A DNA stretch of 64,000 nt from positions 309,892-373,891 of the forward strand of contig CAJQIG010000001.1 of NCBI GenBank assembly GCA_905478415.1, given 5' to 3'. This DNA is from an uncultured Patescibacteria group bacterium. Its GTDB lineage: Bacteria; Patescibacteriota; Microgenomatia; UBA1400; PJMF01. The notes beneath the pieces were generated by a model. It was given only the letters and a program-made list of their open reading frames with translations. It was not told where the DNA came from and did not search any database. Both the position numbers and the translations under genes were made by a program. Positions 1,933 to 38,644 of this stretch are shown in pieces; positions within the stretch are counted from its first letter, which is position 1, and each line of letters begins with the position of its first letter.

Positions 1933-1958
1933 CTCGAATTATTTCGGGGCTTTTTTTG
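1933..1958 (+). terminator. rho-independent terminator-like hairpin plus T-run
   Basis: aagcctcgaa-ttat-ttcggggctt followed by ttttttt. Confidence 0.55.
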
Positions 1959-1975
1959 TAGTAAAAATAAAATAT

Positions 1976-2326
1976 CTATTTTTTCAACACTGCAATCTTC
2001 AAATCTGGAGTTAGCTCCAAAACACCTTCCCCAAAAAGTCGCCAAAGAATATCTTTACTTTCTGGATCACCATCGTTGACCCCCATATGTAAAAAAAGCT
2101 CGTGAATATTCCATTTTCTATCTGGTTGACTCTGGGTAACTGCTCTCATAGCAGCCTCTTTTTCTTCGGAACTTTCTGGCCTTACTAAAGGCTCTCCACT
2201 TAACAGAGAAAGAAATGTAAATGGATCTAAAATGGCAGTAGGATTTTCTTGCATTAGAGTTACTAGCACCTCCTGCAACTCAACCGGATCTCTTTTTTTC
2301 AGTGATTCAACTTGTTCAAGTAACAT
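1976..2326 (-). CDS. hypothetical acidic protein (116 aa), co-oriented with the upstream 808-aa gene
   Basis: ORF; 47-nt gap to upstream gene suggests operon. Confidence 0.5.
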   Translation of the reverse strand: MLLEQVESLKKRDPVELQEVLVTLMQENPTAILDPFTFLSLLSGEPLVRPESSEEKEAAMRAVTQSQPDRKWNIHELFLHMGVNDGDPESKDILWRLFGEGVLELTPDLKIAVLKK

Positions 2327-2373
2327 ACTTTTCCTCCTTCATCACTATTTATAGTACATAGAGTATACATTAT

Positions 2374-4800: not shown

Positions 4801-4958
4801 CTCTCTAGTAATACTATCAAAATATAAAAGTAAAAAACACTACTACGTACAAAAAAAATTAGGCTTTATTCTGAAAGGTCTCTACCTCACTCGTCTAAAG
4901 CTTTCTCATCAAAAACATCCCCTAAAGCAACTTTGATCATGTATACTACTAAGCATTC

Positions 4959-7226: not shown

Positions 7227-7292
7227 GATTAGTCCCTTTTTTCAAGTGAACGTACCTTGTAATCTAATCCTCATATCAGTTAGAATAGTATT

Positions 7293-8102: not shown

Positions 8103-8168
8103 AGTATCGCTACCTACACATCGGTGAAACCTTGAAAAAAATCACTGTTTCACTGACAATACAGCCCT

Positions 8169-8969
8169 ATGCACTTTGAAGCTATCACTCCCACCGAACC
8201 ATCTCAGTCCTTCCTTAAGTTTAGGTTTCTACTTGCTCAAGTAACCTGGTTTATTACCGAGAAGGCTACTAGGCTAGAATCACTCTCAAAAGAGAGCTTG
8301 GCTAACCTAGAGCAGGCAAACCAACTCTTAGAAACTCACTCGGGAGTCGTTTATCTCAATCACAGAGAAAAAAAAGATGCGGCACTCGCAATTGGGCTAG
8401 TTCTTAAATACCTCCCCAATGCTCATACCATGTTAGGACCTGCTGGACTGAAACACTTTGATAAAGACCGTGATCGCAGTAGTGCCATGTTATACAAATT
8501 GATTCGATACTTACATGTCTATGCACTACCAGTCTTTCAACATAATGACAAAATGCAAGATCGCTACTCTCCCGAAGAAATTGCCTTTATGAGCACCCAA
8601 CTCAGAGAACTTTCGAGTCTACTTATGGGAAATGCCCACACTATCTATGGTATTACACCAGAAGGTACTAGAAACGAAGATGGAATCTTAACCAAAGCTC
8701 GAACTGGACTAGGAAGACTTGAACAATACCACACCCCATCCGAAACATTTTACCTCCCCGTAGGACTTATCTACCCACCACATGCAGAAAAAAACACTAT
8801 CGAAGTTGGAAAACCCATTCTACTTCCAGATAGTATTGATTTTTCGACTCTGCCGCTACCAAACTCTACAGAAGATGCCCGACATCGAGCTGAGATGATC
8901 ACGGATGAATTGATGCGTTACCTAGCCCAACTACTACCTGAAGAAAGTAGAGGCTACTACGGGACCTAG
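8169..8969 (+). CDS. PlsC-family acyltransferase-like protein
   Basis: NHREKKD (HX4D) and PEGTR motifs. Confidence 0.5.
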   Translation: MHFEAITPTEPSQSFLKFRFLLAQVTWFITEKATRLESLSKESLANLEQANQLLETHSGVVYLNHREKKDAALAIGLVLKYLPNAHTMLGPAGLKHFDKDRDRSSAMLYKLIRYLHVYALPVFQHNDKMQDRYSPEEIAFMSTQLRELSSLLMGNAHTIYGITPEGTRNEDGILTKARTGLGRLEQYHTPSETFYLPVGLIYPPHAEKNTIEVGKPILLPDSIDFSTLPLPNSTEDARHRAEMITDELMRYLAQLLPEESRGYYGT

Positions 8970-8973
8970 GAAT

Positions 8974-9276
8974 TTATTTCTTTTTCTTGTCAATTTTATC
9001 GAGACCAAGACCTTTGACTCCATAATACACTACTAAAGCAATTACCAAAAAATCAATCAAAACTCCAATAAAACTTCCGAGCATAATGTCTACTGATCCA
9101 AGTGAAATAACCGCGGTACTCAGCCCACCGGTGGCACCCAAGATGACACCAAGAATTGGATTAATAATGTCAGTCACAAGCGAGGTTACAACCTTAGAAA
9201 CAGCGCCACCTAAAATAAAACCAGTTGCCAAACCCACGACACCTTGTTCTCTAATAAAATCCATAAAACCCTTCAT
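8974..9276 (-). CDS. mscL: large-conductance mechanosensitive channel
   Basis: MKGFMDFIREQGVVGLATGFILGGA... classic MscL N-terminus, 100 aa. Confidence 0.8.
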   Translation of the reverse strand: MKGFMDFIREQGVVGLATGFILGGAVSKVVTSLVTDIINPILGVILGATGGLSTAVISLGSVDIMLGSFIGVLIDFLVIALVVYYGVKGLGLDKIDKKKK

Positions 9277-9329
9277 AAAGGCCTTTCTCTCTAAGATACA
9301 CTATCTATAATTGTAGCATGCGCAAGTTA

Positions 9330-10013
9330 TCAGTCGACCCGCTGGCGCACTGTTTCAAGTATCGTATTCCTCGTCACCAGAGACCATCCATGAGACTCAG
9401 CCAGCTTTTTTAACTCATCTTGAGCTGGCTCATACAAAAAACCATGTGTGACTGCATCGAGCAAAGCTTCATCTCCAGAAGAATCGCCGAACCCGAATGA
9501 CACACTGTTTTGCTGTCTCTTGAGTAGATGAGCTATCTCTTTTGACTTTGCCGCCTCGTCAAGAATTTTTGTCACTCTCTGAGTATAAACACCATTCTTT
9601 ATTTCTATTGTTGAAGCAAAGCTCTTTACACCTAAATACTTAGCAATATGAGTCACAATTGGTTCAATCGAAGCCGAGACAATATAAACCTCAAACCCGC
9701 TCTTTTTAAGAAAAGAAAAAAGCTCAGAAACATAGGAAAATAGTTTCTGAGTTTGAAAAAATTCCTCTTGCCATTGCTTCACCTCAAGAACAGTGTGTCC
9801 GGCAACAACTTTTCCACTCAGTCGTACTGCTTCTGCAGTAGCTTGACCATAAGTAATCAGTCCTTGGCTATAATCAGCAAGGAGCGCCTCAGCCATAGCC
9901 TTATCTTCTTTTTGAATCAGCCCCCTTGGAATAGCGTATCCAAATAAGAAATCGACCATTGAGTAGCCATCATATAAAGTTTTATCTAAATCAAAAAAAG
10001 CAAGTGTGTTCAT
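9330..10013 (-). CDS. HAD-IB family hydrolase (phosphoserine phosphatase-like); start moved to internal Met
   Basis: MNTLAFFDLDKTL HAD motif I; ATG at 10013..10011 avoids a 5' overlap with the divergent gene. Confidence 0.65.
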   Translation of the reverse strand: MNTLAFFDLDKTLYDGYSMVDFLFGYAIPRGLIQKEDKAMAEALLADYSQGLITYGQATAEAVRLSGKVVAGHTVLEVKQWQEEFFQTQKLFSYVSELFSFLKKSGFEVYIVSASIEPIVTHIAKYLGVKSFASTIEIKNGVYTQRVTKILDEAAKSKEIAHLLKRQQNSVSFGFGDSSGDEALLDAVTHGFLYEPAQDELKKLAESHGWSLVTRNTILETVRQRVD

Positions 10014-13940: not shown

Positions 13941-15176
13941 TCAATTAAGAACTTCAGCTTCTGCCTCGACAACCGTGTCTAATAATCCTCCAGATGAATG
14001 TGCTCGCACCTTTTCAACCCGCTTCTGCATCTGGCGAACACGCGTCCCCGAAAGTTCTTCATAACTTGTCTGCAACGTTTTGATAGCTCGACCATACTTA
14101 TCCAAAGATGCCACAAACTTTTCCCACTCCATTGAAAATTGATCTACATGTTTGATAACTTCTTTGAGCTGATCACCAATCATAAAGTTGCGATAACTTT
14201 CCATGACAGTCCGGGCCACAATCAGGAACGTAAAGGGTGACACCAAAAGCACTCGTTGTTGCAAAGCTCTATCAACTAAATGTGGTAACTTTTGGTTAAT
14301 AAACGAAAATACCATCTCATTTGGCACAAACATAATAGCGTAATCGAGCGTGTTAAATTCTGGCACAATGTACTCGGCCACCTTATCAATTTTTTTCTTG
14401 AGATCAATCTCGAACTGCTTTAAGTGTGCTGTCCGAGCAACCTTTGTTTGAGCTTCAGCCAATTTCTGCATCTCGCTATACGGAAACTTCACATCAACCG
14501 CGACTAAACGATCATTTGGAAGCAAGAGGGTGATATCGGGAATTAATTTTGATGTCCCTAGTTTTGCTTGTCGTTTATAGTGCAAACCTTCTTGCATGCC
14601 ATGAGACGTCAATAAGTCTTCAATAATTCGTTCTCCCCAAGCTCCTCTAGACTGGTTATTTGAGAGCACTTTCGAAAGCTGTTCTGTCGAAATTTTAAGA
14701 TCATTCGTAATTTCGCGCTGCGTTTCGAGAGCAGAGACAATCTCAGTAAACTTCTCAACCCGGTCATTCTCAATTTTTCTAATTTCTGTTTGGCGAGTAT
14801 CCATGTCTTTTTGTAACTGTTTGACTAAGCGCTCCATCATCAGGTGCTTATTTTCTAAATCCACCTTAATGGCTTCTTTTTCTCCAGCTAATATGTGTCG
14901 ACTTTGTTCGGCAATTTTTTGAGCAGACATGCCGAATACTCTGTCGACAGTTTTTTCAATATCAGATTCCCGCTTGGTATCAAACAATTTTTTCTGAAAG
15001 AAAAGAATGGCTGCAAAACCAGTAATAAGTAGTAATGAAATAACAATCAGTTCAAATGACATATACAATCCCTTGGTTAGTCTAGCTTTCAAAAATGAAA
15101 GTAAGTACAGTATACTAAAGTTAGTACAAAATACTAATCTGATCGCGCACCTCCAAGTATGGATACACACCACCAC
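13941..15176 (-). CDS. rmuC: DNA recombination protein RmuC
   Basis: N-terminal TM plus coiled coil plus C-terminal RmuC-like region (VDVKFPYSEM...FVPNE). Confidence 0.7.
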   Translation of the reverse strand: MVVCIHTWRCAIRLVFCTNFSILYLLSFLKARLTKGLYMSFELIVISLLLITGFAAILFFQKKLFDTKRESDIEKTVDRVFGMSAQKIAEQSRHILAGEKEAIKVDLENKHLMMERLVKQLQKDMDTRQTEIRKIENDRVEKFTEIVSALETQREITNDLKISTEQLSKVLSNNQSRGAWGERIIEDLLTSHGMQEGLHYKRQAKLGTSKLIPDITLLLPNDRLVAVDVKFPYSEMQKLAEAQTKVARTAHLKQFEIDLKKKIDKVAEYIVPEFNTLDYAIMFVPNEMVFSFINQKLPHLVDRALQQRVLLVSPFTFLIVARTVMESYRNFMIGDQLKEVIKHVDQFSMEWEKFVASLDKYGRAIKTLQTSYEELSGTRVRQMQKRVEKVRAHSSGGLLDTVVEAEAEVLN

Positions 15177-25042: not shown

Positions 25043-28000
25043 TCAATCATCTGAGGAATAAACAAGAGCATCAAGGAAGCTCAAGCTTTTAATCTCACGC
25101 ATGACTTCAATAATCAGTTTTTTGAGTTCAGCAACTTCTTCTCTTGAAATAGTAAAGCTACGAGAAACTATTTTGCCTGTTTTTGTTGGCTCAACAAATT
25201 CAAATACTGTTTCAGCCACAGAGTACGGAAAACTGGAGTCAAGTTCGGCGAGCAATACATAAAAAACGAGCTGACGTTTATAGGCACCTCGAATTGATTC
25301 AGGCAATCCCTGCTCTCGTTCTGAGAGAAAACTCAAGCTTGTCTGAGTAGTAGCTTCAATCACATTTGCACTTTTAGCTGTGCCTGTTTTGTAATCAATC
25401 AAACGGACCTTTTTGGTGACTGGGTCTATCAAGTCAATGCGATCTAATCGTCCACTTAAAGGAATTTGGTGTTCTCCATCAAATAAAAGAGTTTTGCTAA
25501 AGGTGCCACCAAAAAATCGTTCTGTAAACAATGGCTTTTTAATTGAAGGGGCATATGTTTCATAATACACAGCTAAAGCCTCTGTGCCTTTTTTAGACCA
25601 ATCTGCATAGTCCTTTTCCAAAAGTACTTCTTTTGCTAAAGCTGTAGTGAAACTAGTTTGCAGGGCACTGAGTGACATCCCTCCATCTGCAGCACTGCTA
25701 TAAAAATCTTCGAGGGCCTTATGCATCGCCGTTCCAAAACTTAAGTGAGCTAGCTTGGCTCTGGGAATTTTAAGTAGCGAGTTATAGATAAACTCTTTGG
25801 GATCTTTTAGGTAGGTGTTTAAAGCAGTTACTGATAAAGTAAAGTCTTCAACCAACGAAGCAAAGAACTCTTTCTCTTGAGCAGTCACATCAACGTTTGC
25901 TGTACTCGGAACTGAGGTGAGAAGGCGAGTTTCAACTGTTTGAGCTAACAACTGGAGTGTTGACTCACTCTCAGTTAGTAAGCTATCACCAATTTCTTCC
26001 AGGAACATACTTCCTACAAAATTTCTAACTACTTTTCCTTCAACCAAAGACTTTGGATAGCTGAGTAAAGTTCCCTTTTTTGCTCGAGTAATGGCTACAT
26101 AAAACAAGCGACGATCTTCTTCATTTTTTTCCAATTTTGAAACATCAACATGAGAAAGAATACCATTAGGAAGTGCTAGTAACTCACGGGAGACAGTATT
26201 GCCCCACTTTTTATCGACTAATCGCATCACAAATACATACTCCCACTCACGCCCTTTGGCTTTGTGAATACTTGAAAGAGTCACCTTGTTTTGAGTCGTC
26301 GCCGGCTGTTGCGTTTTGAAAACCAGCCCATGTTCGGTCATTGTTTGTAAAGCTAACAAAAAATCTGAAAGTCCAAATTGTTTTGAAACTTGCAACCATT
26401 TTTTTATTTCGTTAAAAAGAGTTTGCACGGCTAACAGATGTTCTTTGGCACCTGCTTTTTCAACCAACCAAGAAAATAGTCCCAAACCATTTTCATCGGC
26501 AATAAGTGTCTCAAACCAAGTAGTAAATAAGACGTTTTTTTCTAGAGCAGCTAATGACTCAAGCTTTATTTTAAAAGACTGTAACTGTGTAAAGCCATCA
26601 ACATCAAGTGAAAAATCAGGCGTCAAAGTATCGACATCTCTCTCAAGAACCGTTGCGAAAGTAACTCGTAGTTTACTTGCAATTCGAGCCGTTTGAAACA
26701 CAGCCAACCGTGGCAACTTCAGCCAATCCAGTAAAAAGACTTCAAACAGCAAACCGCTCTCTTCTGTCTCTCCCAGATTCTTAATCACCTGCATAACCTG
26801 TAGTAACTGTTGAATATAGACGTCATCCAAAACATTATTAGAATTATCTGTCTCAAAAGGAATAGCTGCTTCTAAAAGTAGGTCTTGTAGCTCGTAGGCG
26901 TCAGCATGGTTTTTATAGAGCACTGCAATTTCCTGTGGCTCAACCCCACTATCTAGTAAGCGTGAAATCTCTGTAGCTATGTAGTTATTTTCCAGTACCA
27001 CTGTAGCTGCTGGCACCAACTTAAGCTGATCTTGCTGCTTTGATTTTTGCGTTTGGGCTGACTGTAAGCACGTTGTCAGGGCAGTCCTCAGCACCTCGTC
27101 ATGTTCTGGCAAAAATGAGCCTGCTGACGTTTGCAAAGATACGGTATTTTTAACAATGGTCTGGTGAGCAGCGTCATAGAGTTTTTGTGGACACCTATAG
27201 CCTGTTTTGAGTGTGATTACCGTGGCTGTTGGGTATCTTTCAAGAAACCCAAGCATGTTTTCGACAGAAGCTCCTTGAAACCGAAAAATTGACTGATGTG
27301 GGTCACCAACTACAAACAGATTTGCTTGTTCTCCCCACCAACTAGCCAAGTGATCAACAATGGTATTTTGAGCGGTATTGGTATCTTGATACTCATCGAC
27401 CAAAATATATTGAAGTTTTTCTTGATACTCTAATAATAACTCCTCGTGTTCCGAAAAAGCAGTGGTCACAAACGTAATCATGTCGTCAAAGTCATATCGG
27501 TTACGCTGTTGCAGCTGAGCCTGATACTTTACATATAACGTTAACAACTCTTTCTGCTTAGCAAGATTTTTTTCTCGTTTTGTCAGCTGTGTTTTTTTGA
27601 GGTCATTCCGTTCTTGCTCTAAAACTTCCGACTCTACTCTAAGAATTTCCTCAAACTCAGTAGGAGAAACACCCTCACGCTTAAGGTTTGATATTTGAGA
27701 CTGCACTGTTCGCAAGTAGTACAACGGTCTACTTAATGGCTTGAGCACCGTAAGGTTTGAAGAACTCAGTAGCTCTTCAAACAACTCGTATTTTTCTAAA
27801 TCTGAAAGTGGTTGACTAGTGATATCGAGATCAAAGTATTCTGGATGCTCAGTAATAACTTCACTACAAAATGAGTGAAAGGTAGTAATGGCCACATGGT
27901 AGCCAGCTGTACCCATCATCTGTACCAATCGCTCACGCATATTTTTAGCAGCAGCATCAGTAAAGGTCAGTGCCAAAATATTTGAAGGCTCTATGTCCTG

Positions 28001-28159
28001 TTGCTCTAAGATGTGCGCAATGCGGCAAGCTAGTACATGCGTCTTGCCAGTACCAGGACCTGCAATCACCATGACAGGACCTTCGGTGGTAGTCACCGCT
28101 CGTCTCTGCTCTGGATTGAGCATCTGGAACGTCTCTTTAAAAGAGAGTTTGGGCTTCAT
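25043..28159 (-). CDS. UvrD/PcrA-like superfamily 1 helicase with C-terminal PD-(D/E)XK (RecB-like) nuclease domain
   Basis: N-terminal AGPGTGKTH Walker A plus later helicase motifs; C-terminal RLDRIDLID...IDYKTG nuclease motif. Confidence 0.75.
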   Translation of the reverse strand: MKPKLSFKETFQMLNPEQRRAVTTTEGPVMVIAGPGTGKTHVLACRIAHILEQQDIEPSNILALTFTDAAAKNMRERLVQMMGTAGYHVAITTFHSFCSEVITEHPEYFDLDITSQPLSDLEKYELFEELLSSSNLTVLKPLSRPLYYLRTVQSQISNLKREGVSPTEFEEILRVESEVLEQERNDLKKTQLTKREKNLAKQKELLTLYVKYQAQLQQRNRYDFDDMITFVTTAFSEHEELLLEYQEKLQYILVDEYQDTNTAQNTIVDHLASWWGEQANLFVVGDPHQSIFRFQGASVENMLGFLERYPTATVITLKTGYRCPQKLYDAAHQTIVKNTVSLQTSAGSFLPEHDEVLRTALTTCLQSAQTQKSKQQDQLKLVPAATVVLENNYIATEISRLLDSGVEPQEIAVLYKNHADAYELQDLLLEAAIPFETDNSNNVLDDVYIQQLLQVMQVIKNLGETEESGLLFEVFLLDWLKLPRLAVFQTARIASKLRVTFATVLERDVDTLTPDFSLDVDGFTQLQSFKIKLESLAALEKNVLFTTWFETLIADENGLGLFSWLVEKAGAKEHLLAVQTLFNEIKKWLQVSKQFGLSDFLLALQTMTEHGLVFKTQQPATTQNKVTLSSIHKAKGREWEYVFVMRLVDKKWGNTVSRELLALPNGILSHVDVSKLEKNEEDRRLFYVAITRAKKGTLLSYPKSLVEGKVVRNFVGSMFLEEIGDSLLTESESTLQLLAQTVETRLLTSVPSTANVDVTAQEKEFFASLVEDFTLSVTALNTYLKDPKEFIYNSLLKIPRAKLAHLSFGTAMHKALEDFYSSAADGGMSLSALQTSFTTALAKEVLLEKDYADWSKKGTEALAVYYETYAPSIKKPLFTERFFGGTFSKTLLFDGEHQIPLSGRLDRIDLIDPVTKKVRLIDYKTGTAKSANVIEATTQTSLSFLSEREQGLPESIRGAYKRQLVFYVLLAELDSSFPYSVAETVFEFVEPTKTGKIVSRSFTISREEVAELKKLIIEVMREIKSLSFLDALVYSSDD

Positions 28160-29369
28160 CTTTTGGTGTTTCTAAAGAAGCGGTTTCTTCTTCATTTAGT
28201 TTGGATTCGGGTAATTCTAAATGCTGGATTGTAGGGAGTGCACCACCAATAATACCTTGCAAATCTCCGTACAGTGCTGAGGTGCTCATAACCACTGTTT
28301 CAAGTTCTTTTTCGCGCTTATTCCAAATACGTTGGAATGAACGCTTCTCTGTTTCTAAGTCTTGCTTCATATTCATGAACGCCATAACAATGTTTTCAAT
28401 TCTATTTTTGAACTGCGAACCACTCAAGTAACCAAACAGAACTTCCATTTTTTCATCTCGACCAACGAGTGACTGTTTGACTTTTGAAAGCTCAATAATA
28501 TGCATTCTTAGTGCCGAAGCTAGTGGCACCACATGAGTATGACCAACAACCCACACACCATTTTTAAGACCAAAACCTTTGATATCATCAGGAAGTGCTT
28601 GTGAAACTAAAATGGCTACATCAGCTTTGACAATACCTTGATCCCCCTTCAGTTTAGAAATCCATTTTTCGCTAAAGGCTTTGGTGTTTTTTGATTCCCA
28701 CAATATTGTTCCTGCTTTGGCACCAATTTGAGCATTAACGTTTTGAATGAGATCTGCTCCTTTCACGCCTTGAGGAACATCAGTAACCTCATCTTTCATA
28801 AAAGTAGATGAAAGTAGTTCTTTGAGCTGATCTTCCTGGACTTCACCTTGAATCTGCATGGAACCCTGTTCTGCTTTTCGCTTCAGATCATCAATTTGCT
28901 TACGCATAATTTCAAGTTGTTTATCTTTTTCTTGAAGTTTGAGTCCCTGCTGTTCTGCTTCTGATTTTTTTGTTTGTTCGATAATTTTGGCGCGCTCTTC
29001 GTCGATTTTGCGAGTCATCTCTAACTCAATCTTTTTTTCTCTCTCTTCAAGATCTCTGGATTTTTTTCTTAACTCCAACTCTATTTTTTCTGATTCTTCA
29101 AGCTTTTTTGAATTTTCTTTAAGTTGTTCTTGTAGATCTTTTAGCTCTTTGTGTTGTTTTTCAGCAGCCTTCTCTTGGGCAACTTGCCAAAGGCGTTTCT
29201 TTTCTTTGACTGCCTTTTCTTCAAGTTCCGCGCGGAGTTTTTCTTCAAATATAATCTTTTGTTTTTCCAATTGGTGTTTGAGTTTGTGTCCTACTTGCTC
29301 TGAAAGTGCTTTCGTTAACGGAATTTGTGCTCCACAATCGGGGCAAGTAATAGTTTGATCTTCTGGCAT
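28137..29369 (-). CDS. DUF2130-family protein (N-terminal CxxC zinc ribbon, long coiled coil, conserved C-terminal domain)
   Basis: MPEDQTITCPDCGAQIPL ... KE-rich coiled coil; overlaps the helicase start by 23 nt. Confidence 0.6.
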   Translation of the reverse strand: MPEDQTITCPDCGAQIPLTKALSEQVGHKLKHQLEKQKIIFEEKLRAELEEKAVKEKKRLWQVAQEKAAEKQHKELKDLQEQLKENSKKLEESEKIELELRKKSRDLEEREKKIELEMTRKIDEERAKIIEQTKKSEAEQQGLKLQEKDKQLEIMRKQIDDLKRKAEQGSMQIQGEVQEDQLKELLSSTFMKDEVTDVPQGVKGADLIQNVNAQIGAKAGTILWESKNTKAFSEKWISKLKGDQGIVKADVAILVSQALPDDIKGFGLKNGVWVVGHTHVVPLASALRMHIIELSKVKQSLVGRDEKMEVLFGYLSGSQFKNRIENIVMAFMNMKQDLETEKRSFQRIWNKREKELETVVMSTSALYGDLQGIIGGALPTIQHLELPESKLNEEETASLETPKDEAQTLF

Positions 29370-29383
29370 TTGGTCGGACTTTC

Positions 29384-29641
29384 TTATGAATGTTCTTCTG
29401 TATCGCGTGTTTGGAGTCGAGAAATACTGCGATCAACTTGAGCTCTCTTTATACCAACCATATCCTTGACAGTACCTTCAGAAGCAAACTCCGCTCTGAC
29501 AAGTTTTTTTCGCTCTGTCTGAGCTTTCTGCAACCGGGAATTCATCTCTTCCGCTCGTCGCTGTCCAAATGACGAGGGAGCAGCACTTCGCTCAGCAGAA
29601 GAATCAGATTTTTTAACGGGGGTTGGACGTAAAAATTTCAT
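29384..29641 (-). CDS. small basic hypothetical protein (85 aa), first gene of the DUF2130 operon
   Basis: ORF; a TATACT -10 on the minus strand at 29651-29656 sits just upstream of the ATG. Confidence 0.45.
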   Translation of the reverse strand: MKFLRPTPVKKSDSSAERSAAPSSFGQRRAEEMNSRLQKAQTERKKLVRAEFASEGTVKDMVGIKRAQVDRSISRLQTRDTEEHS

Positions 29642-29675
29642 CGTGCACTTAGTATAGCAAAGAAGGTGAAATTTT

Positions 29676-29698
29676 GGCGGCGCGACTTGCGCGCCGCC
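29676..29698. repeat. perfect GC-only 9-bp-stem hairpin ggcggcgcg-acttg-cgcgccgcc
   Basis: Read directly; composition outlier in an AT-rich intergenic region. Confidence 0.8.
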
Positions 29699-30044
29699 AT
29701 TCTTATAATAATCTCAAAACGTTACTGAGAGCGCATCTGCTGAACCCGGGCATTCGGGTCAGATGCACTTCCGGTTGGCTCCAAAGGAAACCCTTCTGAC
29801 CAACCAAAACGAAAATTCACAACAGCCATGGGCAAAGAAACTACGTTTCTTATCAGTCTCCAGGCCCAAAAACCAGTTTTAACTTCTCTTGCTTCCCACC
29901 GTCGTATCACCGTTGGGTTTTTTGTAACCATTTAGTAAGATCCTCCTAGTTGATGAGATTTTTAAAGAAGTCGTTATTATACCCAATCAGTTTAAATAGA
30001 TACAGCAGGAAAAAAACAGCCAATGTGATATAGTATGTCATACT

Positions 30045-31899: not shown

Positions 31900-32103
31900 T
31901 TAGGTTAGGACAAATAGTAACAGAAGTCCCCAACCAAAACCAATAATGAGCGCAGTAAAACCTGACCCATAGAGCATTAATATGGCGGCATACTTGCGCT
32001 TTGTTGGATCCTTTAGATACCAGTCATTTTGAAAAAGCAAACTGGCAAGAATCAACAACAGAATTCCAATGACTAAAAAAACAATTGGACCTGTGATACC
32101 CAC
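31900..32103 (-). CDS. small two-TM membrane protein, GTG start
   Basis: AGGAGG RBS 7 nt upstream of GTG at 32103. Confidence 0.45.
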   Translation of the reverse strand: MGITGPIVFLVIGILLLILASLLFQNDWYLKDPTKRKYAAILMLYGSGFTALIIGFGWGLLLLFVLT

Positions 32104-32204
32104 AAAAATTCCTCCTTTTTGTGTGAATTACCCAAATTATAACATATAATATAAGCTCTTGTGGAGATGAGAACCCTACTCGTTCCCAATGGTATACTAA
32201 CCTT

Positions 32205-32927
32205 ATGTCTTCTCTAGTATCTTTCAAAACATATGGTTCAGGTCAAACCACCCTAGTCTGCTTTCCTGGTTGGCTCCATCCACTCGAAAAAGAACCACTC
32301 TTTTTAAAACTTTTGAGCAAAGAATTCACTGTTATCTCGGTACTCTTACCTGGATACATGGGTACTGCCGATGCAGATTCCCTCTCTGACTTTCCTGCTT
32401 TAGCACAAGATATTCATTCGTTTCTAAAAAAAATTCACAGTAAAAAAATTGTTTTAGTGGGGTTTTCTTTAGGCTGCCGACTGATAATGGAACTAGAAAA
32501 ACAGTTCCCCAGTGCTCACCCAAAAATCTTTGTTGGTTGCCCTATTGGTAGCTACCAGATTCCCTTTTGGGCAAAGCCTTTACTTTCGAAATCAAAGATT
32601 GTAAATGTATTGAGAAAAAGCAGTGTAATCAAGAAAAAAATTGTTACAATGGCACTGAGAAAACTCAGCACAAGGAAAGCGATTTTTAGAGATACATCTG
32701 TTTCTCTTACTGGCGCCTTTGACTCTTTAGTTGCCTTACTACTCAGCAAGACTGATGATTCCTTGTTTACTCAGAATGCTCTCTTTATTTATGGGGAAAA
32801 TGATGCTTACACTCAGCTTGCAAAAGTGCTTTCGCCAAAAAATATCATCTTTATTAAAAATGCAGAACACAACTGCGTTAGATCTAATGAAAAAAGAGTT
32901 ATAAAACACATGAGAGAATTTATTTAG
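32205..32927 (+). CDS. alpha/beta hydrolase
   Basis: GFSLG nucleophile elbow. Confidence 0.55.
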   Translation: MSSLVSFKTYGSGQTTLVCFPGWLHPLEKEPLFLKLLSKEFTVISVLLPGYMGTADADSLSDFPALAQDIHSFLKKIHSKKIVLVGFSLGCRLIMELEKQFPSAHPKIFVGCPIGSYQIPFWAKPLLSKSKIVNVLRKSSVIKKKIVTMALRKLSTRKAIFRDTSVSLTGAFDSLVALLLSKTDDSLFTQNALFIYGENDAYTQLAKVLSPKNIIFIKNAEHNCVRSNEKRVIKHMREFI

Positions 32928-32948
32928 TAAAAAAGTTAGGAGTTACAA

Positions 32949-33326
32949 ATGATACAACAAGAACAAAAAAGAAGAATGCCAACACAAGCTGAAGCAAATC
33001 AGCGTCACGGGCATGTCTACATTACTCGTTTGATGAACACAGAGGACTTACAAACAATAGAAGCAGACTTTGGCCAAATTGCATTAGCTTTCAGAAGAAT
33101 TAAAGCTGAAGAAATTGGTTCAAGCTTTCATCCAGGATTAATTGAAACGAGGTACTTAGCTTTGGCTGGCAGTTTTGTTCCTAAGTATCTTGATAAACTG
33201 GTACAAGGAAATGCAACCGGTGACGATGCCACATCAATTAGATCAGCAATTGAATCTGTCGAACTTGGAGAAGTTGAGTATCCAGTTACGGTTACAACTT
33301 TGAAAAAGTTGTTCGTTGGTTTGTAA
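32949..33326 (+). CDS. hypothetical protein
   Basis: ORF with RBS aggag. Confidence 0.4.
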   Translation: MIQQEQKRRMPTQAEANQRHGHVYITRLMNTEDLQTIEADFGQIALAFRRIKAEEIGSSFHPGLIETRYLALAGSFVPKYLDKLVQGNATGDDATSIRSAIESVELGEVEYPVTVTTLKKLFVGL

Positions 33327-33343
33327 AGAAATACTGTAAAATT

Positions 33344-33368
33344 GAATGTGCTTGGAACTTATTTTGTA
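33344..33368. repeat. degenerate copy of array repeat (gaatgtgcttggaacttattttgta)
   Basis: Shares tgttggaact core; gene stop TAA (33359-33361) lies inside. Confidence 0.4.
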
Positions 33369-33841
33369 TAGTATTCTCTATTTCTCTTAGCCTCATTAGT
33401 ACTCCAAGCCATGGCTTTCTGTGCATCATCTTGACTTTGCAATGGAATACTTTCCACCCATTTTAAATCTTCTGGCAATAAATGATCAAAATCTTTACCT
33501 GGCAAAATGGTATAAAAATCTCCTGGTATTTCTTCTGGGGGAAAACCCGTATTAATTAAAATCTTTAACCCAGCAGCAGAATCAGTGACGCTCGTCATTG
33601 AAATATTAGTTATCGAAACTGCACTATGACCAGTAATTTGCACTAGCCTTATCTGGTATTTAGAAAGATCAACTTTTTCAATAAGCATTTTTGCTATTTT
33701 AACTGCTTTTCTATGGCAAATATCATTATGTAAATTTTCATTTCCCAGTGCTTCTAGAATTACTGCTTTCAACTCTGTTTCTAGTTGCACTAATTCCTGC
33801 TTTGAAAAAGGGGTTTTGTCAAAACCTGATATTTCTGTCAT
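33359..33841 (-). CDS. hypothetical cargo protein 6 of repeat-delimited array
   Basis: ORF; stop overlaps degenerate repeat copy. Confidence 0.5.
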   Translation of the reverse strand: MTEISGFDKTPFSKQELVQLETELKAVILEALGNENLHNDICHRKAVKIAKMLIEKVDLSKYQIRLVQITGHSAVSITNISMTSVTDSAAGLKILINTGFPPEEIPGDFYTILPGKDFDHLLPEDLKWVESIPLQSQDDAQKAMAWSTNEAKRNREYYTK

Positions 33842-33897
33842 AAAACAAATTCTACTATTTTTATAAAAAAATATCGAACACAGATGTACAGTATCGA

Positions 33898-33927
33898 GAA
33901 TTTAGGGTGTTATTGGAACTACTCTAA
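33898..33927. repeat. array repeat copy A (gaatttagggtgttattggaactactctaa)
   Basis: About 80% identical to copies B and C over the ggaactactctaa core. Confidence 0.65.
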
Positions 33928-34379
33928 ACTGATAATGACGATTTAGTGGTATGTTTATTCCTTCTAAATCCGGTTTCTTGATCTATAATTACTGATTCTC
34001 CGTCAAGATGAATAAGTTCTATTTTATTTTTTTTAGTTGTAAGGAAATGTAAAAAATAGTGATTCGACATTTCAATAAATAATTCTAAAGAATCTTTAAA
34101 TAGTTTGGTCGACTCAACACTCATTCCAATTAACTGGTTAAAAAACAAGATAATATCTTCTGAATCATAACTGTCATCAATTTTAGTTCTTCCCGAATCT
34201 AGAACTTCCCAATTCTTACCAATATATAAAATAAGATTACCAGTTTTTTGATTCTGTTTTGAACCAAAATAAAGTGCTAACTCATTGAAAAAGACCTCAA
34301 CATGTAATAGTTCTAAATTCTCTAAATTATAAAATTCTTCTTCGATATCTAAAAATGATTCTTGTGTCATGTTATTCAA
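33924..34379 (-). CDS. hypothetical cargo protein 5 (151 aa)
   Basis: ORF; stop TAG supplied by repeat copy A. Confidence 0.5.
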   Translation of the reverse strand: MNNMTQESFLDIEEEFYNLENLELLHVEVFFNELALYFGSKQNQKTGNLILYIGKNWEVLDSGRTKIDDSYDSEDIILFFNQLIGMSVESTKLFKDSLELFIEMSNHYFLHFLTTKKNKIELIHLDGESVIIDQETGFRRNKHTTKSSLSV

Positions 34380-34430
34380 CTATACATTAAAAAATAGATA
34401 CTCATAAATACTTTATTCAAGATTTTTTTC

Positions 34431-34449
34431 ATATTAATTACTCTAAAAA
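34431..34449. repeat. degenerate array repeat copy E (ttaattactctaaaaag)
   Basis: Matches tactctaa...aaaag of copy B. Confidence 0.35.
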
Positions 34450-35456
34450 GTATTTTCGTACCACTTAAGTGCTCTAATGAGACCTTGATTACAATATTCC
34501 TGTCTGACAACCTCTTCGACATCTTTTTCAGATTTCATCCACCCTTTTAGGGGATCTATCATAGATTTTAAAATATCTTTAGCTTCCTCAATAGAAAATT
34601 TATTTTTTTCACACTCATTTTTAGAAAGACTTATCAGTTCTTCTAGCGGAACTGTCTCAAGTCTAATTCTGTCTGTAGAAGATCTTCTTATACCCCAAGG
34701 AGAAAAGAGTAAAATGCTTTTATTCGATAGTTCGGTACTCAGCACCTCATATAAAACTTTTGCCTGAATAAACGATACAGGACTTTTTCTTTCCCTCGCT
34801 TGTTTTATGGCATGAGTTGTAAAATTTCTGTGCTCTGTACGAAAGTAATCAAGGTCAAAGATCGCAACTTTATAAGGACCATGTTCTTCACCGTTAGTAA
34901 TCTCTTCTAACCAAGAAGTGCCCTTTGTTACCAAATTATAGTTTTGATATGTTTTATTTTCATCTAAAATAAGTTGATAAAAAAACGTGTCTTCAGAAGT
35001 CAGATCTTCTTGTGCTTCTAAAATTGAACCATCATCAAAATATATTTTTAGTACTTTTGATTCTTCACTTACTTCTAAGTTCTTGATTATAAGGGTAGTA
35101 TCTACCAATGTTACTAGTTCATCAGCTACCGCAAGCATATGATACTGTTCATCAATAAACTCATTCTTGAAAACGGAAATTTCTCTACCTTTAGCGTTTT
35201 TCCAACTCCATGTATCTGTTCCAATTGATAAGTGATAGTTAGCTTCATGTTTTTTTGAATATATTGAGATAAATAGTTGCTTTGTGTCTGAAGAACTATT
35301 TTGAATAGTTACTATTCTCAAGCCACTCAAATGATTATTTAACCTGGTTTGTGCCTCTTTGTAAGACAGTTTGTTTGTTTGGTAAAAATTACTCATGTAT
35401 TTATTATACAGTAAGTGTGTGAGGAAGAAGATTTGCAGATTTTCTGTCTTACTCAC
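34443..35456 (-). CDS. hypothetical cargo protein 4 (337 aa)
   Basis: ORF; stop TAG inside degenerate repeat attactctaa. Confidence 0.5.
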   Translation of the reverse strand: MSKTENLQIFFLTHLLYNKYMSNFYQTNKLSYKEAQTRLNNHLSGLRIVTIQNSSSDTKQLFISIYSKKHEANYHLSIGTDTWSWKNAKGREISVFKNEFIDEQYHMLAVADELVTLVDTTLIIKNLEVSEESKVLKIYFDDGSILEAQEDLTSEDTFFYQLILDENKTYQNYNLVTKGTSWLEEITNGEEHGPYKVAIFDLDYFRTEHRNFTTHAIKQARERKSPVSFIQAKVLYEVLSTELSNKSILLFSPWGIRRSSTDRIRLETVPLEELISLSKNECEKNKFSIEEAKDILKSMIDPLKGWMKSEKDVEEVVRQEYCNQGLIRALKWYENTF

Positions 35457-35496
35457 ATAGAATTAAATTTTGTTTAACTTTTTGTAAGAAGCAGAC

Positions 35497-35817
35497 TTAG
35501 GATCGAAAGTGGCCTTGACCACGATAGATCTCAATATCTACTCGTACATATCCCAGATTTGTTGCAAATTCCTTACGATAAAATGCTCGGTTCTGCCCGG
35601 CACTTGCGCCACCTACAGCCCCATCAATGGCTCGTTTTGCGGCATCGATTGCATTACGAAAATCTTGACGATTTCGCAATGAACTATAATAACGGCACGA
35701 TTCCTCGTAAACCTCTTCCAACAATTGCTTGCCTTCTGAGCGTGAACAAGAACCACCGTTATAACTTCGGCTGGCAATATTCTCGCTGCGTACTTGAACT
35801 TGGAATGCTACACTCAT
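35497..35817 (-). CDS. hypothetical cargo protein 3 (106 aa; Gly/Ala/Arg-rich, two CxxC-like pairs)
   Basis: ORF; the antisense track ORF 35559..35819 is judged spurious. Confidence 0.45.
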   Translation of the reverse strand: MSVAFQVQVRSENIASRSYNGGSCSRSEGKQLLEEVYEESCRYYSSLRNRQDFRNAIDAAKRAIDGAVGGASAGQNRAFYRKEFATNLGYVRVDIEIYRGQGHFRS

Positions 35818-36000
35818 GATTTTTACCCCTTGTTTTGAGTGAGGGACAAAATCAACTGCAAATCTTCTTCACTTAAAGAACAGCTATTATCGAGAACTTC
35901 ATACGCAGATGAAGTCCACTAAAAATAACTACGAGGATTATAACATGATTAATATATAACTTAGTATCAAAAGATATCAAAAACTATTGTTTAAAAAACC

Positions 36001-37585: not shown

Positions 37586-38644
37586 ATGGCTAGAACAAAG
37601 AAGACTGACACACCAACAAAAGATGGTAAATCAGTTGAACAAAACGCTAAATTACAAGCCGTTAACATTGCAATGCAACAAATTGAAAAAGAGTTTGGCA
37701 AAGGCTCAGTCATGAAAATGGGTGACTCACTCAAAAACATGACCATCATCCCAGCCGTCTCAACTGGCTCCCTCTCGCTCAATCTGGCGTTAGGTGTTGG
37801 TGGCTTTCCAAAAGGAAGAATCGTTGAAATTTACGGACCAGAGGCATCAGGTAAAACCACTATTTGTCTGCACGCTATCGCTGCAACTCAAAAACAAGGT
37901 GGAGTAGCTGCCTTTATTGACGTTGAACATGCTCTTGATCCAACCAGAGCTGAAAAAATCGGTGTTAACCTCGATGATATGATCATTTCTCAACCAGATT
38001 ACGGTGAACAGGCCCTCGAAATTGCCGAAACGCTTATCCGATCGGGTGGTGTGGACATTGTAGTTATCGATTCAGTTGCAGCCTTAGTCCCTAAGTCAGA
38101 AATTGAAGGCGAGATGGGCGATCACCAAATGGGTACTCAAGCACGACTCATGTCTCAAGCAATGAGAAAACTGACTGCAGCTATCAGTAAAACAAAAACC
38201 CTGGTTATCTTCACCAACCAGATTCGACACAAAATTGGAGTCATGTTTGGAAGTCCAGAAACAACTACTGGTGGTAATGCCCTCAAGTTTTATGCTTCGC
38301 AAAGACTCGATATTAGAAAAATTGGCAACATCCAAGAAGGTGATCAGATTGTTGGTAGCAGACACAGAGTCAAAGTTAAGAAAAATAAATTAGCTCCACC
38401 ATTTAGAGTAGCTGAGTTTGATATGGACGAGAATGGTGTTTCTATGACTGGAGACGTGGTCGACATTGGAGTCAGTGAAGGTGTCATAGAAAAGGCAGGT
38501 AGTTTCTATAAATACGATGGTAATGTGCTGGCACAAGGACGAGAGGCCACTAAGAAACATTTTGATGCAAATCCTGATTTCATGAAGAAAATTCAAAAGG
38601 AAATCTGGGCTAAAATCAAAGAAAAGAACCAAATTTCAGATTAA
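37586..38644 (+). CDS. recA: recombinase RecA
   Basis: GPEASGKTT Walker A, full-length conservation, AGGAG RBS. Confidence 0.95.

What the first reader, a model, noticed from the sequence alone, without database searches (positions are those of the whole stretch)
25043..29641. Three-gene operon: small basic protein, DUF2130 zinc-ribbon/coiled-coil protein, UvrD-helicase fused to PD-(D/E)XK nuclease
The tightly overlapped genes (23-nt and 14-nt junctions) combine an SF1 helicase-nuclease with the uncharacterised DUF2130 family. The SF1 helicase-nuclease is AddA-like but has no AddB partner. The linkage suggests DUF2130 acts with the helicase-nuclease in DNA-end processing, or in a defence or recombination function not yet assigned.
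Basis: partly seen in the sequence, partly recalled or inferred. Interest (0 to 1): 0.55.

Follow-up and report, generated by a model that had tools for sequence, protein, structure and literature searches.

The report
Coiled-coil nuclease paired with helicase-nuclease
In a tiny-genome (CPR) bacterium, an uncharacterised DUF2130 gene that is itself a predicted DNA-cutting enzyme sits in one operon with a DNA-unwinding-and-cutting enzyme. In sister lineages the look-alike nuclease RmuC occupies the same slot, which points to a so far undescribed two-part DNA-repair machine rather than a phage-defence system.

Summary
The three minus-strand genes are real: an 85-aa basic protein, a 410-aa DUF2130 protein and a 1038-aa helicase-nuclease. 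The last two overlap by 23 nt.

- DUF2130 is a PD-(D/E)XK nuclease with invariant catalytic residues, one CPxC knuckle (not a full zinc ribbon) and a ~150-residue helix.
- The helicase core is PcrA/UvrD-like rather than AddA-like, and its RecB-type nuclease lacks the Fe-S cysteines of sister clades.

The DUF2130-helicase linkage recurs only in the window's Pace-/Woesebacteria-like clade:
- 10 of the 14 closest species genomes have it.
- At least 28 of 69 close DUF2130 clusters share a contig with a close helicase cluster.
- None of the other 66 DUF2130 loci has it, except one 5 kb apart.
- 0 of 61 independently sampled helicase loci have it adjacent; one has DUF2130 two genes upstream.

In another helicase clade (Beckwithbacteria, WWE3), RmuC fills the same upstream slot despite different flanks. 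RmuC has the same coiled-coil plus PD-(D/E)XK architecture.

The window context is housekeeping (RecA, RNase Y, MetRS, TatD, RmuC, cell-wall genes), not a defence island. Elsewhere, however, some DUF2130 genes sit beside Gabija, OLD-family or type I RM genes.

Best reading: a co-expressed nuclease plus helicase-nuclease DNA repair/recombination module. The mechanism is inferred, not shown.

The parts
29384..29641 (-). Small basic protein (85 aa, pI 10.4), first gene of the operon. Conserved motif P-x-S/T-F-G-x-K/R-R-A ... E-R-x-K-L-x-R-A-x-F/Y-A.
   Evidence: ORF. No Pfam, NCBIfam, PADLOC or PDB match. Homologues 28-54% identical lie directly upstream of DUF2130 in L001, L003-L006, L008, L009, L049 and L163, and about 3.5 kb upstream in L002 and L027. 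It stays next to DUF2130 in L005 and L006, where the helicase is absent.
28137..29369 (-). DUF2130 protein (410 aa): a predicted coiled-coil PD-(D/E)XK nuclease.
   Evidence: PF09903, E 4e-62. 50-85% identical to CPR homologues. AlphaFold model with mean pLDDT 79.
29334..29345 (-). Single C-P-x-C knuckle (Cys9, Cys12) in an N-terminal beta-hairpin.
   Evidence: C9, P10 and C12 are conserved in 72 of 76 diverse members, and none has a second CxxC. Strands 6-8 and 15-17 in the model.
28875..29318 (-). Long uninterrupted helix (aa 18-165), presumed coiled-coil stalk.
   Evidence: Helix H18-165 in the model, pLDDT 80-87. Its length varies by insertions among homologues.
28545..28841 (-). PD-(D/E)XK nuclease core (aa 177-275) with E179, D193, D206 and E225-S-K227.
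   Evidence: Residues invariant or nearly so in 76 representatives. pLDDT above 90. Foldseek hits only to PD-(D/E)XK or restriction-endonuclease folds: PDB best E 5e-3 (MspJI, DdmD nuclease, Bax1); BFVD 9 hits at E<=1e-3, best 5e-9. Listed as a PD-(D/E)XK family in PMC3424549.
28248..28541 (-). C-terminal helical hairpin (aa 277-374).
   Evidence: Helices H277-316 and H318-374 in the model.
28140..28214 (-). Disordered acidic tail (aa 386-410) ending in Q-T-L-F.
   Evidence: pLDDT below 50. An x-S/T-L-F/L terminal motif is present in about a third of close homologues (44 of 120). Its function is not established.
28137..28159 (.). 23-nt overlap of the DUF2130 3' end with the helicase start (translational coupling likely).
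   Evidence: The same short junctions (-35 to +88 nt) occur in L001, L004, L007, L008, L009, L024, L049 and L163.
25043..28159 (-). PcrA/UvrD-type SF1A helicase fused to a RecB-family nuclease (1038 aa).
   Evidence: Pfam domains. Invariant Walker A (G34-T40), D255-E256-x-Q258-D259 and R692. Closest solved relatives are PcrA and UvrD.
26054..28120 (-). Helicase core (aa 14-702).
   Evidence: PF00580 and PF13361.
25088..25840 (-). C-terminal RecB-family nuclease domain (aa 774-1024) with H813, E817, D906, (D)-Y923-K924, Q963 and Y967. It contains no cysteines.
   Evidence: PF12705, E 1e-20. Invariant residues. No Cys in the last 290 aa, whereas clade B and C orthologues carry the C...CxxCx5C pattern.
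29675..29699 (.). GC-rich hairpin (10-bp stem, 9 G-C pairs) separating the operon from the upstream 69-aa ORF.
   Evidence: No role has been tested.
13941..15176 (-). RmuC-family protein of the same genome. It is not part of the operon, but it belongs to the family that occupies the DUF2130 slot in sister lineages.
   Evidence: PF02646, E 8e-59. It lies next to MetRS and TatD, as in Beckwithbacteria L171, where the helicase-nuclease directly follows RmuC.

Best explanation
This is a housekeeping operon for DNA repair or recombination in a CPR (Pace-/Woesebacteria-like) bacterium.

Proposed mechanism, all steps inferred:
- DUF2130 is a dimeric endonuclease on a coiled-coil stalk: a CPxC knuckle, a ~150-residue helix and a PD-(D/E)XK core.
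- It is made together with, and works with, a 3'-5' PcrA/UvrD-type helicase that carries its own RecB-family nuclease.
- DUF2130 (or RmuC in sister lineages) makes or trims the DNA entry point, for example at broken, blocked, hairpin or branched DNA.
- The helicase-nuclease then unwinds and resects from that point to give RecA a single-stranded substrate.
- Together the pair supplies one motor and two nucleases, the same parts list as AddAB, AdnAB and RecBCD, although no AddB gene lies beside it in the window or in the related loci.

Shown: the gene structure, the domains and catalytic residues, the lineage-restricted but recurrent linkage, the RmuC substitution, and the housekeeping context.

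Inferred: physical or functional cooperation, the substrates, and the order of action.
For: Operon structure:
- Same strand, 23-nt overlap and 14-nt spacer.
- Junctions stay short (-35 to +88 nt) in 8 related loci.

Recurrent linkage:
- The helicase-nuclease lies directly downstream of DUF2130 in L001, L003 (across an assembly gap), L004, L007, L008, L009, L024 and L049. It is 1-2 genes away in L002 and L027.
- It is also linked in L161, L162, L163 and L164.
- 28 of 69 close DUF2130 clusters on contigs of at least 10 kb share an exact contig length with a close helicase cluster.
- Linked members are scattered through helicase clade A.

Slot substitution:
- In helicase clade C, RmuC (PF02646) lies directly upstream on the same strand in about 13-15 of the 61 testable loci. 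The gap is -59 to +64 nt, most often -4 to +5.
- This holds in Beckwithbacteria (flanked by MetRS and TatD) and in WWE3 (flanked by GroES/EL and GreA), so the pair survives rearrangement.

Both proteins look active:
- DUF2130 E179, D193, D206, E225 and K227 are invariant or nearly so.
- Helicase motifs and RecB nuclease motifs are invariant.

Housekeeping context:
- RecA, RNase Y, MetRS, TatD, RmuC, a Mur ligase, a release factor and cell-wall genes surround the operon.
- Synteny with RecA and PMT-UbiA-GT4 is conserved.
- Base composition shows no anomaly at the locus.
- PADLOC gives only generic partial UvrD hits and a coiled-coil artefact.

From the literature, RmuC is SOS-induced in Vibrio cholerae (PMC5963079).
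Against: - Linkage is absent from most of the DUF2130 family. None of the other 66 loci has the helicase adjacent, and these include L005 and L006 at 62-63% identity. One (L072) has it 5 kb away.
- Linkage is also absent from an independent sample of helicase orthologues. 0 of 61 are adjacent, including about 17 clade-A members, and one (L144) has DUF2130 at position -2.
- Much of the adjacency sits inside one larger syntenic block (RecA ... DUF2130-helicase | PMT-UbiA-GT4). Shared descent therefore explains part of it.
- In L002 an opposite-strand gene separates the two genes.
- Homology between DUF2130 and RmuC could not be shown (hhalign E 0.04). The 'same slot' argument rests on shared architecture only.
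- There is no expression, interaction or biochemical evidence. I could not check whether the genome lacks AddB, RecC or RecD elsewhere.
Confidence: 0.5

Rival explanations
1. Neighbours without partnership. DUF2130 and the helicase-nuclease are independent housekeeping DNA-metabolism genes. They stay adjacent in one lineage because of inherited gene order, and at most share a promoter.
For: The whole region is syntenic in the linked genomes, including unrelated PMT, UbiA and GT4 genes and RecA/RNase Y. Adjacency is lost in L005 and L006, in all other DUF2130 lineages and in 61 of 61 sampled helicase loci. Upstream neighbours of the helicase elsewhere are unrelated genes such as Dus, an acyltransferase and an HhH-GPD glycosylase.
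Against: The overlapping stop and start and the consistently short junctions argue for co-expression. The pair persists down to 51% (DUF2130) and 42% (helicase) identity. A second nuclease family of the same architecture, RmuC, independently holds the same co-oriented slot in two CPR lineages with different flanks. That is unlikely if position carried no functional meaning.
Confidence: 0.25
2. An anti-phage or anti-plasmid defence module: a nuclease plus a UvrD-type helicase-nuclease that degrades foreign DNA, comparable in logic to Gabija, Shield (RmuC-domain ShdA) or the UvrD-Cas4 fusions linked to RM systems.
For: - On an Aliarcobacter plasmid, DUF2130 lies 1 nt upstream of a full-length Gabija pair (GajA 633 bits, GajB 897 bits).
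- Other members lie in type I RM operons (L045, L062, Chryseobacterium plasmid) or next to OLD-family ATPase-TOPRIM genes (L054, L062, L073).
- Plasmid copies lie beside NB-ARC, RT-like, and PIN plus SIR2 genes.
- The RmuC domain is used by the Shield system (PMC10952713).
- UvrD-Cas4-like fusions were predicted to be defence components (PMC5704561).
Against: The window locus has no GajA, RM, toxin or mobile-element genes nearby and lies among core genes. Its position is conserved across species rather than variable. DUF2130 is 50-85% identical across CPR lineages, which is typical of core genes. The window helicase matches GajB models only partially (240 bits in two stretches, against 897 for a true GajB). 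Base composition is not atypical.
Confidence: 0.12
3. DUF2130 is a replisome- or SSB-tethered nuclease recruited through its acidic C-terminal tail ending in x-S/T-L-F. The tail resembles a beta-clamp-binding or SSB-tail-type peptide. Under this reading the helicase link is secondary.
For: A disordered acidic tail ends in QTLF. Tails such as QESLL, QQSLL, EQSLF and KSLFDE occur in about a third of close homologues. They resemble the QL[SD]LF clamp-binding consensus (my own knowledge).
Against: The motif is absent from about two thirds of close homologues. The spacing from Q to L varies. The motif occurs both with and without an adjacent helicase.
Confidence: 0.08

Closest known systems
AddAB / AdnAB / RecBCD helicase-nuclease end-resection complexes
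   Same: An SF1A 3'-5' helicase core is followed by a RecB-family nuclease in one polypeptide. The operon as a whole supplies two PD-(D/E)XK nucleases and a motor. RecA is encoded 8 kb away.
   Different: No AddB, RecC, RecD or AdnA-type second helicase-like subunit lies in the window. Scores are far below the AddA and RecB equivalog cut-offs (135 against 707; 108 against 696). The helicase core is closer to PcrA/UvrD than to AddA, AdnB or RecB. The candidate second nuclease is a coiled-coil protein unrelated to AddB.
UvrD-Cas4-like (PF12705) fusion proteins described by Hudaiberdiev et al. 2017 (PMC5704561)
   Same: Same domain architecture. Sister clades B and C of this family carry the Cas4/AddB-type four-cysteine pattern and hit PF01930.
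   Different: That paper reports type III RM, Dcm/Vsr or non-conserved contexts, not DUF2130 or RmuC. The window clade has lost all four cysteines, and its context is housekeeping.
RmuC (PF02646; E. coli YigN)
   Same: Same architecture: an N-terminal long helical or coiled-coil part followed by a PD-(D/E)XK core. Both families are listed in the PD-(D/E)XK superfamily (PMC3424549). RmuC occupies the identical slot upstream of the orthologous helicase-nuclease in Beckwithbacteria and WWE3.
   Different: No significant sequence or profile similarity. The DUF2130 protein does not match PF02646. The window genome encodes both proteins. DUF2130 has a CPxC knuckle.
Gabija (GajA OLD-type nuclease plus GajB UvrD-type helicase)
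   Same: The logic is a nuclease plus a UvrD-family helicase. One DUF2130 gene sits directly upstream of a bona fide Gabija pair on an Aliarcobacter plasmid.
   Different: The window has no GajA (ATPase-TOPRIM). The helicase matches GajB models only partially and carries its own nuclease. The context is not a defence island.
SbcCD / Mre11-Rad50 (analogy only)
   Same: A nuclease activity is attached to a long coiled coil bearing a single CxxC motif that could form a shared zinc site between two chains. This is inferred and from general knowledge of the Rad50 zinc hook.
   Different: DUF2130 has no ABC ATPase head and no Mre11-type phosphoesterase. The CxxC is at the N-terminus, not at a coiled-coil apex. 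Zinc binding is untested.

Membership tests
DUF2130 (PF09903 / COG4487) | Match to the Pfam model above the gathering score | tested here: met
   210.2 bits against a cut-off of 26.7, model positions 3-253 of 255.
PD-(D/E)XK nuclease superfamily (DUF2130 protein) | Catalytic signature: E on the first core helix, D on a beta strand, and (D/E)-x-K on the next strand | tested here: met
   E179 in 75 of 76 and D206, E225, K227 in 76 of 76 family representatives. In the model they fall on helix 177-189 and strands 207-214 and 217-227.
PD-(D/E)XK nuclease superfamily (DUF2130 protein) | Restriction-endonuclease-like alpha/beta fold | tested here: met
   Core pLDDT above 90. BFVD has 9 hits at E<=1e-3 to Mrr, restriction-endonuclease and PD-(D/E)XK proteins. 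PDB hits are weaker (E>=5e-3) but all are PD-(D/E)XK nucleases.
PD-(D/E)XK nuclease superfamily (DUF2130 protein) | Nuclease activity | not testable with these tools
   Needs biochemistry.
Zinc ribbon | Two CxxC/H knuckles giving four zinc ligands in one chain | tested here: not met
   There is only one C-P-x-C. 0 of 76 members have a second CxxC.
RmuC (PF02646) | Match of the DUF2130 protein to the RmuC model, or profile-profile homology | tested here: not met
   No PF02646 hit. hhalign E 0.36 and 0.04, probability below 2%.
SF1A UvrD/PcrA/Rep helicases | Conserved helicase motifs (Walker A, DExQD, motifs III-VI) and model matches | tested here: met
   PF00580 E 7e-71 and PF13361 E 5e-30. G34-T40, D255-E256-Q258-D259, R293 and R692 are invariant. 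PcrA structure 374 bits.
AddA / RecB (AddAB, RecBCD) | Score above the NCBIfam equivalog cut-off | tested here: not met
   TIGR02785 135 against 707.65; TIGR00609 108 against 696; PcrA TIGR01073 315 against 911.
AddA / RecB (AddAB, RecBCD) | Adjacent partner subunit (AddB, or RecC/RecD) | tested here: not met
   No second helicase-like or AddB-like gene lies in the 64-kb window or next to the orthologues. The rest of the genome could not be searched.
AddA / RecB (AddAB, RecBCD) | C-terminal RecB-family nuclease motifs | tested here: met
   PF12705 E 1e-20. H813, E817, D906, Y923-K924, Q963 and Y967 are invariant.
UvrD-Cas4-like fusion (PMC5704561) | UvrD helicase plus a PF12705 nuclease in one protein | tested here: met
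UvrD-Cas4-like fusion (PMC5704561) | Cas4/AddB-type four-cysteine Fe-S cluster site | tested here: not met
   The last 290 residues of the window protein and of L001 and L008 contain no Cys. The pattern is present in clade B and C orthologues.
Gabija | GajA (ATPase plus TOPRIM) encoded next to GajB | tested here: not met
   No GajA hit for any operon protein or neighbour. The GajB hits are partial, whereas a true system scores full length.

The most novel reading that the evidence does not exclude
Coiled-coil PD-(D/E)XK nucleases of the RmuC and DUF2130 type are interchangeable partners of a UvrD/PcrA-type helicase-nuclease that is widespread in CPR bacteria. Together they would form a previously unrecognised two-component DNA-end or hairpin-processing machine that replaces AddAB/RecBCD in these reduced genomes. 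This would give the first mechanistic role to both RmuC, enigmatic since 2000, and DUF2130.
Probability: 0.3. Interest if true: 0.7.

Novelty: new variant of a known kind. Interest (0 to 1): 0.5.

Why it matters
DUF2130 (COG4487) has thousands of members and no experimental characterisation. In the searchable literature it appears in only four papers, and only one assigns it anything: membership of the PD-(D/E)XK superfamily, function unknown. RmuC has been known genetically for over two decades without a mechanism.

The finding is that either family can sit in the same translationally coupled slot in front of one orthologous helicase-nuclease. This yields a concrete, testable hypothesis for both families: they cooperate with a UvrD-type helicase-nuclease. 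It may also explain how CPR bacteria process DNA ends for RecA. Whether their genomes really lack AddAB or RecBCD could not be checked here and is the assumption to verify first.

The same family appears next to Gabija, OLD and type I RM genes elsewhere. This parallels the recruitment of RmuC into the Shield system and suggests the nuclease module has been recruited into defence more than once.

Tried and rejected
1. A 'Rosetta-stone' fusion of DUF2130 and the helicase in L003 (an ORF of 1189 aa) is an artefact. A run of N (read as X) joins the two genes. The 514-aa 'small ORF-DUF2130 fusion' in L009 came from my own ORF caller; the small ORF is in another frame.

2. Homology between DUF2130 and RmuC could not be demonstrated. 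hhalign of the DUF2130 alignment against the window RmuC gave E 0.36. A 76-sequence against 18-sequence profile comparison gave E 0.04 over 51 columns.

3. The C-terminal x-S/T-L-F tail as a universal clamp- or partner-binding motif is rejected. It is present in only about a third of close homologues and in 15 of 75 species loci by my strict pattern. I left it as an unproven side idea.

4. Sequence search of DUF2130 against PDB chains returned only coiled-coil noise. The small ORF had no PDB, Pfam, NCBIfam or PADLOC match.

5. The PADLOC LmuB hit of DUF2130 (E 2e-6) aligns the coiled coil only. The same hit appears for the plasmid homologue, so I treat it as a compositional artefact.

6. The 351-aa and 101-aa genes upstream of the helicase in Pacebacteria L173 show no relation to DUF2130, RmuC or the small ORF.

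7. The promoter and terminator scans found no more sites than in shuffled sequence.

8. Literature searches on CPR plus AddAB or RecBCD gave nothing useful on the repair gene content of these organisms.

Full report
**What is there**

On the minus strand of the window lie three consecutive ORFs: 29384-29641 (85 aa), 28137-29369 (410 aa) and 25043-28159 (1038 aa).
- The helicase ATG lies 23 nt inside the 3' end of the middle gene.
- The small ORF's stop is separated from the middle gene's ATG by a 14-nt spacer, not an overlap.
- A GC-rich hairpin (29675-29699) separates the small ORF from the next ORF upstream.
- Pfam places the 410-aa protein in DUF2130/PF09903 (E 4e-62). The 1038-aa protein has UvrD-helicase, UvrD_C and PDDEXK_1 domains.
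- The small ORF matches no family. It is basic (pI 10.4) and has homologues 28-54% identical in ten related genomes, nearly always directly upstream of DUF2130.

- One junction is a spacer.
- The 'zinc ribbon' is a single CPxC knuckle.
- The helicase is 'AddA-like' in architecture only.
- DUF2130 is itself a nuclease family.

**Organism and context**

The closest homologues of all three proteins come from Candidate Phyla Radiation bacteria named Pacebacteria, Woesebacteria and Roizmanbacteria.

The window carries core genes:
- an RmuC-family gene (13941-15176), MetRS, TatD, RecA (37586-38644) and RNase Y;
- a Mur ligase, a FemAB-family gene, a release factor and an FtsE-like ABC ATPase;
- the PMT-UbiA-GT4 glycosylation genes, which converge on the helicase gene.

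Base composition at the locus is unremarkable. I found no restriction, toxin, integrase or other defence or mobile-element genes within about 10 kb. This is not a defence island.

**The DUF2130 protein**

An alignment of 36 CPR homologues and a wider set of 76 representatives (clusters at 50% identity or less) show these residues:
- Cys9-Pro10-x-Cys12 is conserved in 72 of 76.
- Glu179 (75 of 76) and Asp193, Asp206, Glu225 and Lys227 (all 76 of 76) are invariant or nearly so.
- No member has a second CxxC.

The AlphaFold model (mean pLDDT 79) shows, in order:
- a short N-terminal beta-hairpin carrying the two cysteines;
- one uninterrupted helix of about 150 residues;
- an alpha/beta core (residues 177-275, pLDDT above 90) that places E179, D206 and E225-x-K227 on the elements expected for a PD-(D/E)XK active site;
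- a long helical hairpin;
- a disordered acidic tail.

Foldseek supports the fold assignment. It finds only PD-(D/E)XK or restriction-endonuclease-like proteins:
- PDB: MspJI, the DdmD nuclease domain and Bax1, best E 5e-3.
- BFVD: nine hits at E<=1e-3, best 5e-9.

This agrees with the only substantive literature mention. Steczkiewicz et al. 2012 list DUF2130/COG4487 as a PD-(D/E)XK family of unknown function (PMC3424549).

With only two cysteines per chain, zinc binding would need a dimer. A shared zinc site at the end of a parallel coiled coil is an inference, not a result.

**The helicase-nuclease**

- All SF1A helicase motifs and the RecB-family nuclease motifs are invariant among 26 orthologues.
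- By profile score the core is closest to PcrA (374 bits), UvrD (303) and Rep (268). AddA (148), AdnB (147), RecB (81) and GajB (66) score much lower.
- It falls far below every NCBIfam equivalog threshold.
- The architecture is that of the UvrD-Cas4-like (PF12705) fusions described by Hudaiberdiev et al. 2017 (PMC5704561).
- Sister clades of this protein keep the Cas4/AddB-type C...CxxCx5C cysteines. The window's clade has none in its nuclease domain.

**Is the linkage recurrent? Starting from DUF2130**

I took 80 species-representative loci and searched them with the window helicase.
- The helicase-nuclease is immediately downstream on the same strand in L001, L003 (across an assembly gap), L004, L007, L008, L009, L024 and L049.
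- It is one or two genes away in L002 and L027, and 5 kb away in L072.
- It is absent within 8 kb in the remaining 65 or so loci.
- The loci without adjacency include two close relatives (L005, L006), all Gracilibacteria- and Peregrinibacteria-type loci, and all non-CPR loci.

Three further metagenome contigs, with DUF2130 proteins only 55-56% identical to the window's, also carry the pair. In two of them an unrelated small ORF is inserted between the genes.

In the two lists of the 120 best hits, 28 of 69 DUF2130 clusters on contigs of at least 10 kb share an exact contig length with a helicase cluster.

**Is the linkage recurrent? Starting from the helicase**

I took 80 metagenome loci of helicase orthologues at 32-48% identity.
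- None of the 61 testable loci has DUF2130 adjacent.
- One (L144) has it two genes upstream.

The association is therefore real and recurrent, but confined to part of one lineage.

**The most informative result**

In the helicase-centred sample, the most frequent neighbour is an RmuC-family protein (PF02646).
- It is co-oriented and immediately upstream, or one gene removed, in about 13-15 of the 61 testable loci.
- The gap is -59 to +64 nt, most often -4 to +5.
- A neighbour-joining tree of the helicases separates a DUF2130-linked clade A, which contains the window, from an RmuC-linked clade C.
- Named genomes confirm the RmuC-helicase pair. In Beckwithbacteria the genes overlap by 4 nt and are flanked by MetRS and TatD. 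In WWE3 the flanks are GroES/EL and GreA. The pair therefore survives rearrangement.

RmuC and DUF2130 share an architecture, a long helical N-terminal part followed by a PD-(D/E)XK core, and both are listed in the same superfamily. I could not demonstrate homology between them. The window genome has both. Its RmuC sits next to MetRS and TatD, just as in Beckwithbacteria.

Two different coiled-coil nucleases in the same translationally coupled slot, in front of orthologous helicase-nucleases, is the best evidence here for a functional partnership.

**Mechanism (inferred)**

I consider it most likely (about 0.5) that the operon is a housekeeping DNA repair or recombination module.
- DUF2130 would act as a dimeric structure- or end-specific endonuclease.
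- The 3'-5' helicase with its RecB-type nuclease would unwind and resect from the site DUF2130 creates.
- Together they supply one motor and two nucleases, as in AddAB, AdnAB or RecBCD, and feed RecA.

Three points from outside this analysis fit the idea. RmuC is SOS-induced in Vibrio (PMC5963079). It is known genetically to limit inversions at short inverted repeats in E. coli (my own knowledge). A Shield-system RmuC domain has nuclease activity (cited in PMC10952713).

None of the mechanistic steps is shown.

**Rivals**

- Inherited synteny without partnership (0.25). It is supported by the broad syntenic block and the frequent absence of linkage. The overlap and the RmuC parallel weaken it.
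- A defence system (0.12). The window context argues against it. It is kept alive by family members elsewhere:
  - DUF2130 lies 1 nt upstream of a full-length Gabija pair on an Aliarcobacter plasmid.
  - It lies within or beside type I RM operons (L045, L062, a Chryseobacterium plasmid).
  - It lies next to OLD-family ATPase-TOPRIM genes (L054, L062, L073).
  - On plasmids it lies near NB-ARC, RT-like, and PIN plus SIR2 genes.
- A clamp- or SSB-tethered role through the x-S/T-L-F tail (0.08). This rests on a motif present in only about a third of close homologues.

**Novelty and verdict**

Both families and the helicase-nuclease architecture are known. DUF2130 is experimentally uncharacterised. 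Neither its pairing with the helicase-nuclease nor the RmuC substitution appears in the literature I could search.

I rate this a new variant of a known kind (helicase-nuclease DNA-processing systems) and give it moderate interest (0.5). It offers a specific, testable role for two long-standing orphan nuclease families. The evidence, however, is comparative only, and the linkage is restricted to one lineage.

Noticed in passing
window 13941-15176 (-): A bona fide RmuC-family gene (PF02646, E 8e-59) lies about 10 kb from the operon, next to MetRS and TatD. In Beckwithbacteria (L171) the same RmuC-MetRS-TatD arrangement has the helicase-nuclease directly after RmuC.
   Followed up: yes
window 25088-25840 (-), compared with L101, L108, L117, L125, L134, L144, L148: The nuclease domain of the window helicase and of its clade has no cysteines. 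Orthologues in the two sister clades keep the Cas4/AddB-type C...CxxCx5C pattern, which implies loss of the Fe-S cluster in this lineage.
   Followed up: partly
window 28140-28214 (-); alignment A1 C-termini: DUF2130 has a disordered acidic tail ending in Q-T-L-F. Tails such as QESLL, QQSLL, EQSLF and KSLFDE occur in about a third of close homologues. They resemble beta-clamp-binding or SSB-tail-type peptides. Such tails looked commoner in the helicase-linked loci, but I ran no formal test and the motif is not exclusive to them.
   Followed up: partly
L165 (Aliarcobacter butzleri plasmid NZ_CP104379.1) 5593-10799: DUF2130 lies 1 nt upstream of a full-length Gabija pair (GajA 633 bits, GajB 897 bits), followed by a DNA methyltransferase and a RhuM-family gene. 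This is a single instance.
   Followed up: partly
L045 2237-9221; L062 2878-10883; L054 5804-9260; L073 8001-11905; L169 (Chryseobacterium plasmid) 1013-9478: Outside the window's clade, some DUF2130 genes are the last gene of, or lie beside, type I RM operons (HsdM confirmed by Pfam). Others lie next to OLD-family ATPase-TOPRIM nucleases. This is about 7 of some 66 loci, plus plasmid cases.
   Followed up: partly
L003 7998-11567: An apparent in-frame DUF2130-helicase fusion ORF of 1189 aa is produced by a run of N in the assembly. It is not a real fusion.
   Followed up: yes
window 29675-29699: A perfect 10-bp GC-rich hairpin (9 G-C pairs) lies between the 69-aa ORF (29722-29931) and the small ORF. 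Its T-rich tail is on the plus strand, where no gene ends.
   Followed up: no
window 32001-36000 and 60001-64000: G+C drops to 0.32-0.37, against about 0.40-0.44 elsewhere. The ORFs I scanned there gave no hit or only an alpha/beta hydrolase; the 60-64 kb stretch was barely sampled (one ORF, no hit). These may be laterally acquired or fast-evolving segments.
   Followed up: no
window 4959-7226 (+) and 2374-4800 (-): A 755-aa protein has a C-terminal vWA-TerF-like domain. Next to it is an 808-aa protein with no Pfam match.
   Followed up: no
L161 7289-7552; L164 4976-5287; L002 9297-9515; L027 9228-9455; L005 9227-9463: Unrelated small ORFs, two of them clearly membrane-like, are inserted directly after DUF2130 in several genomes (in L005 no helicase follows). 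L002 and L027 share one such family (46% identity).
   Followed up: partly
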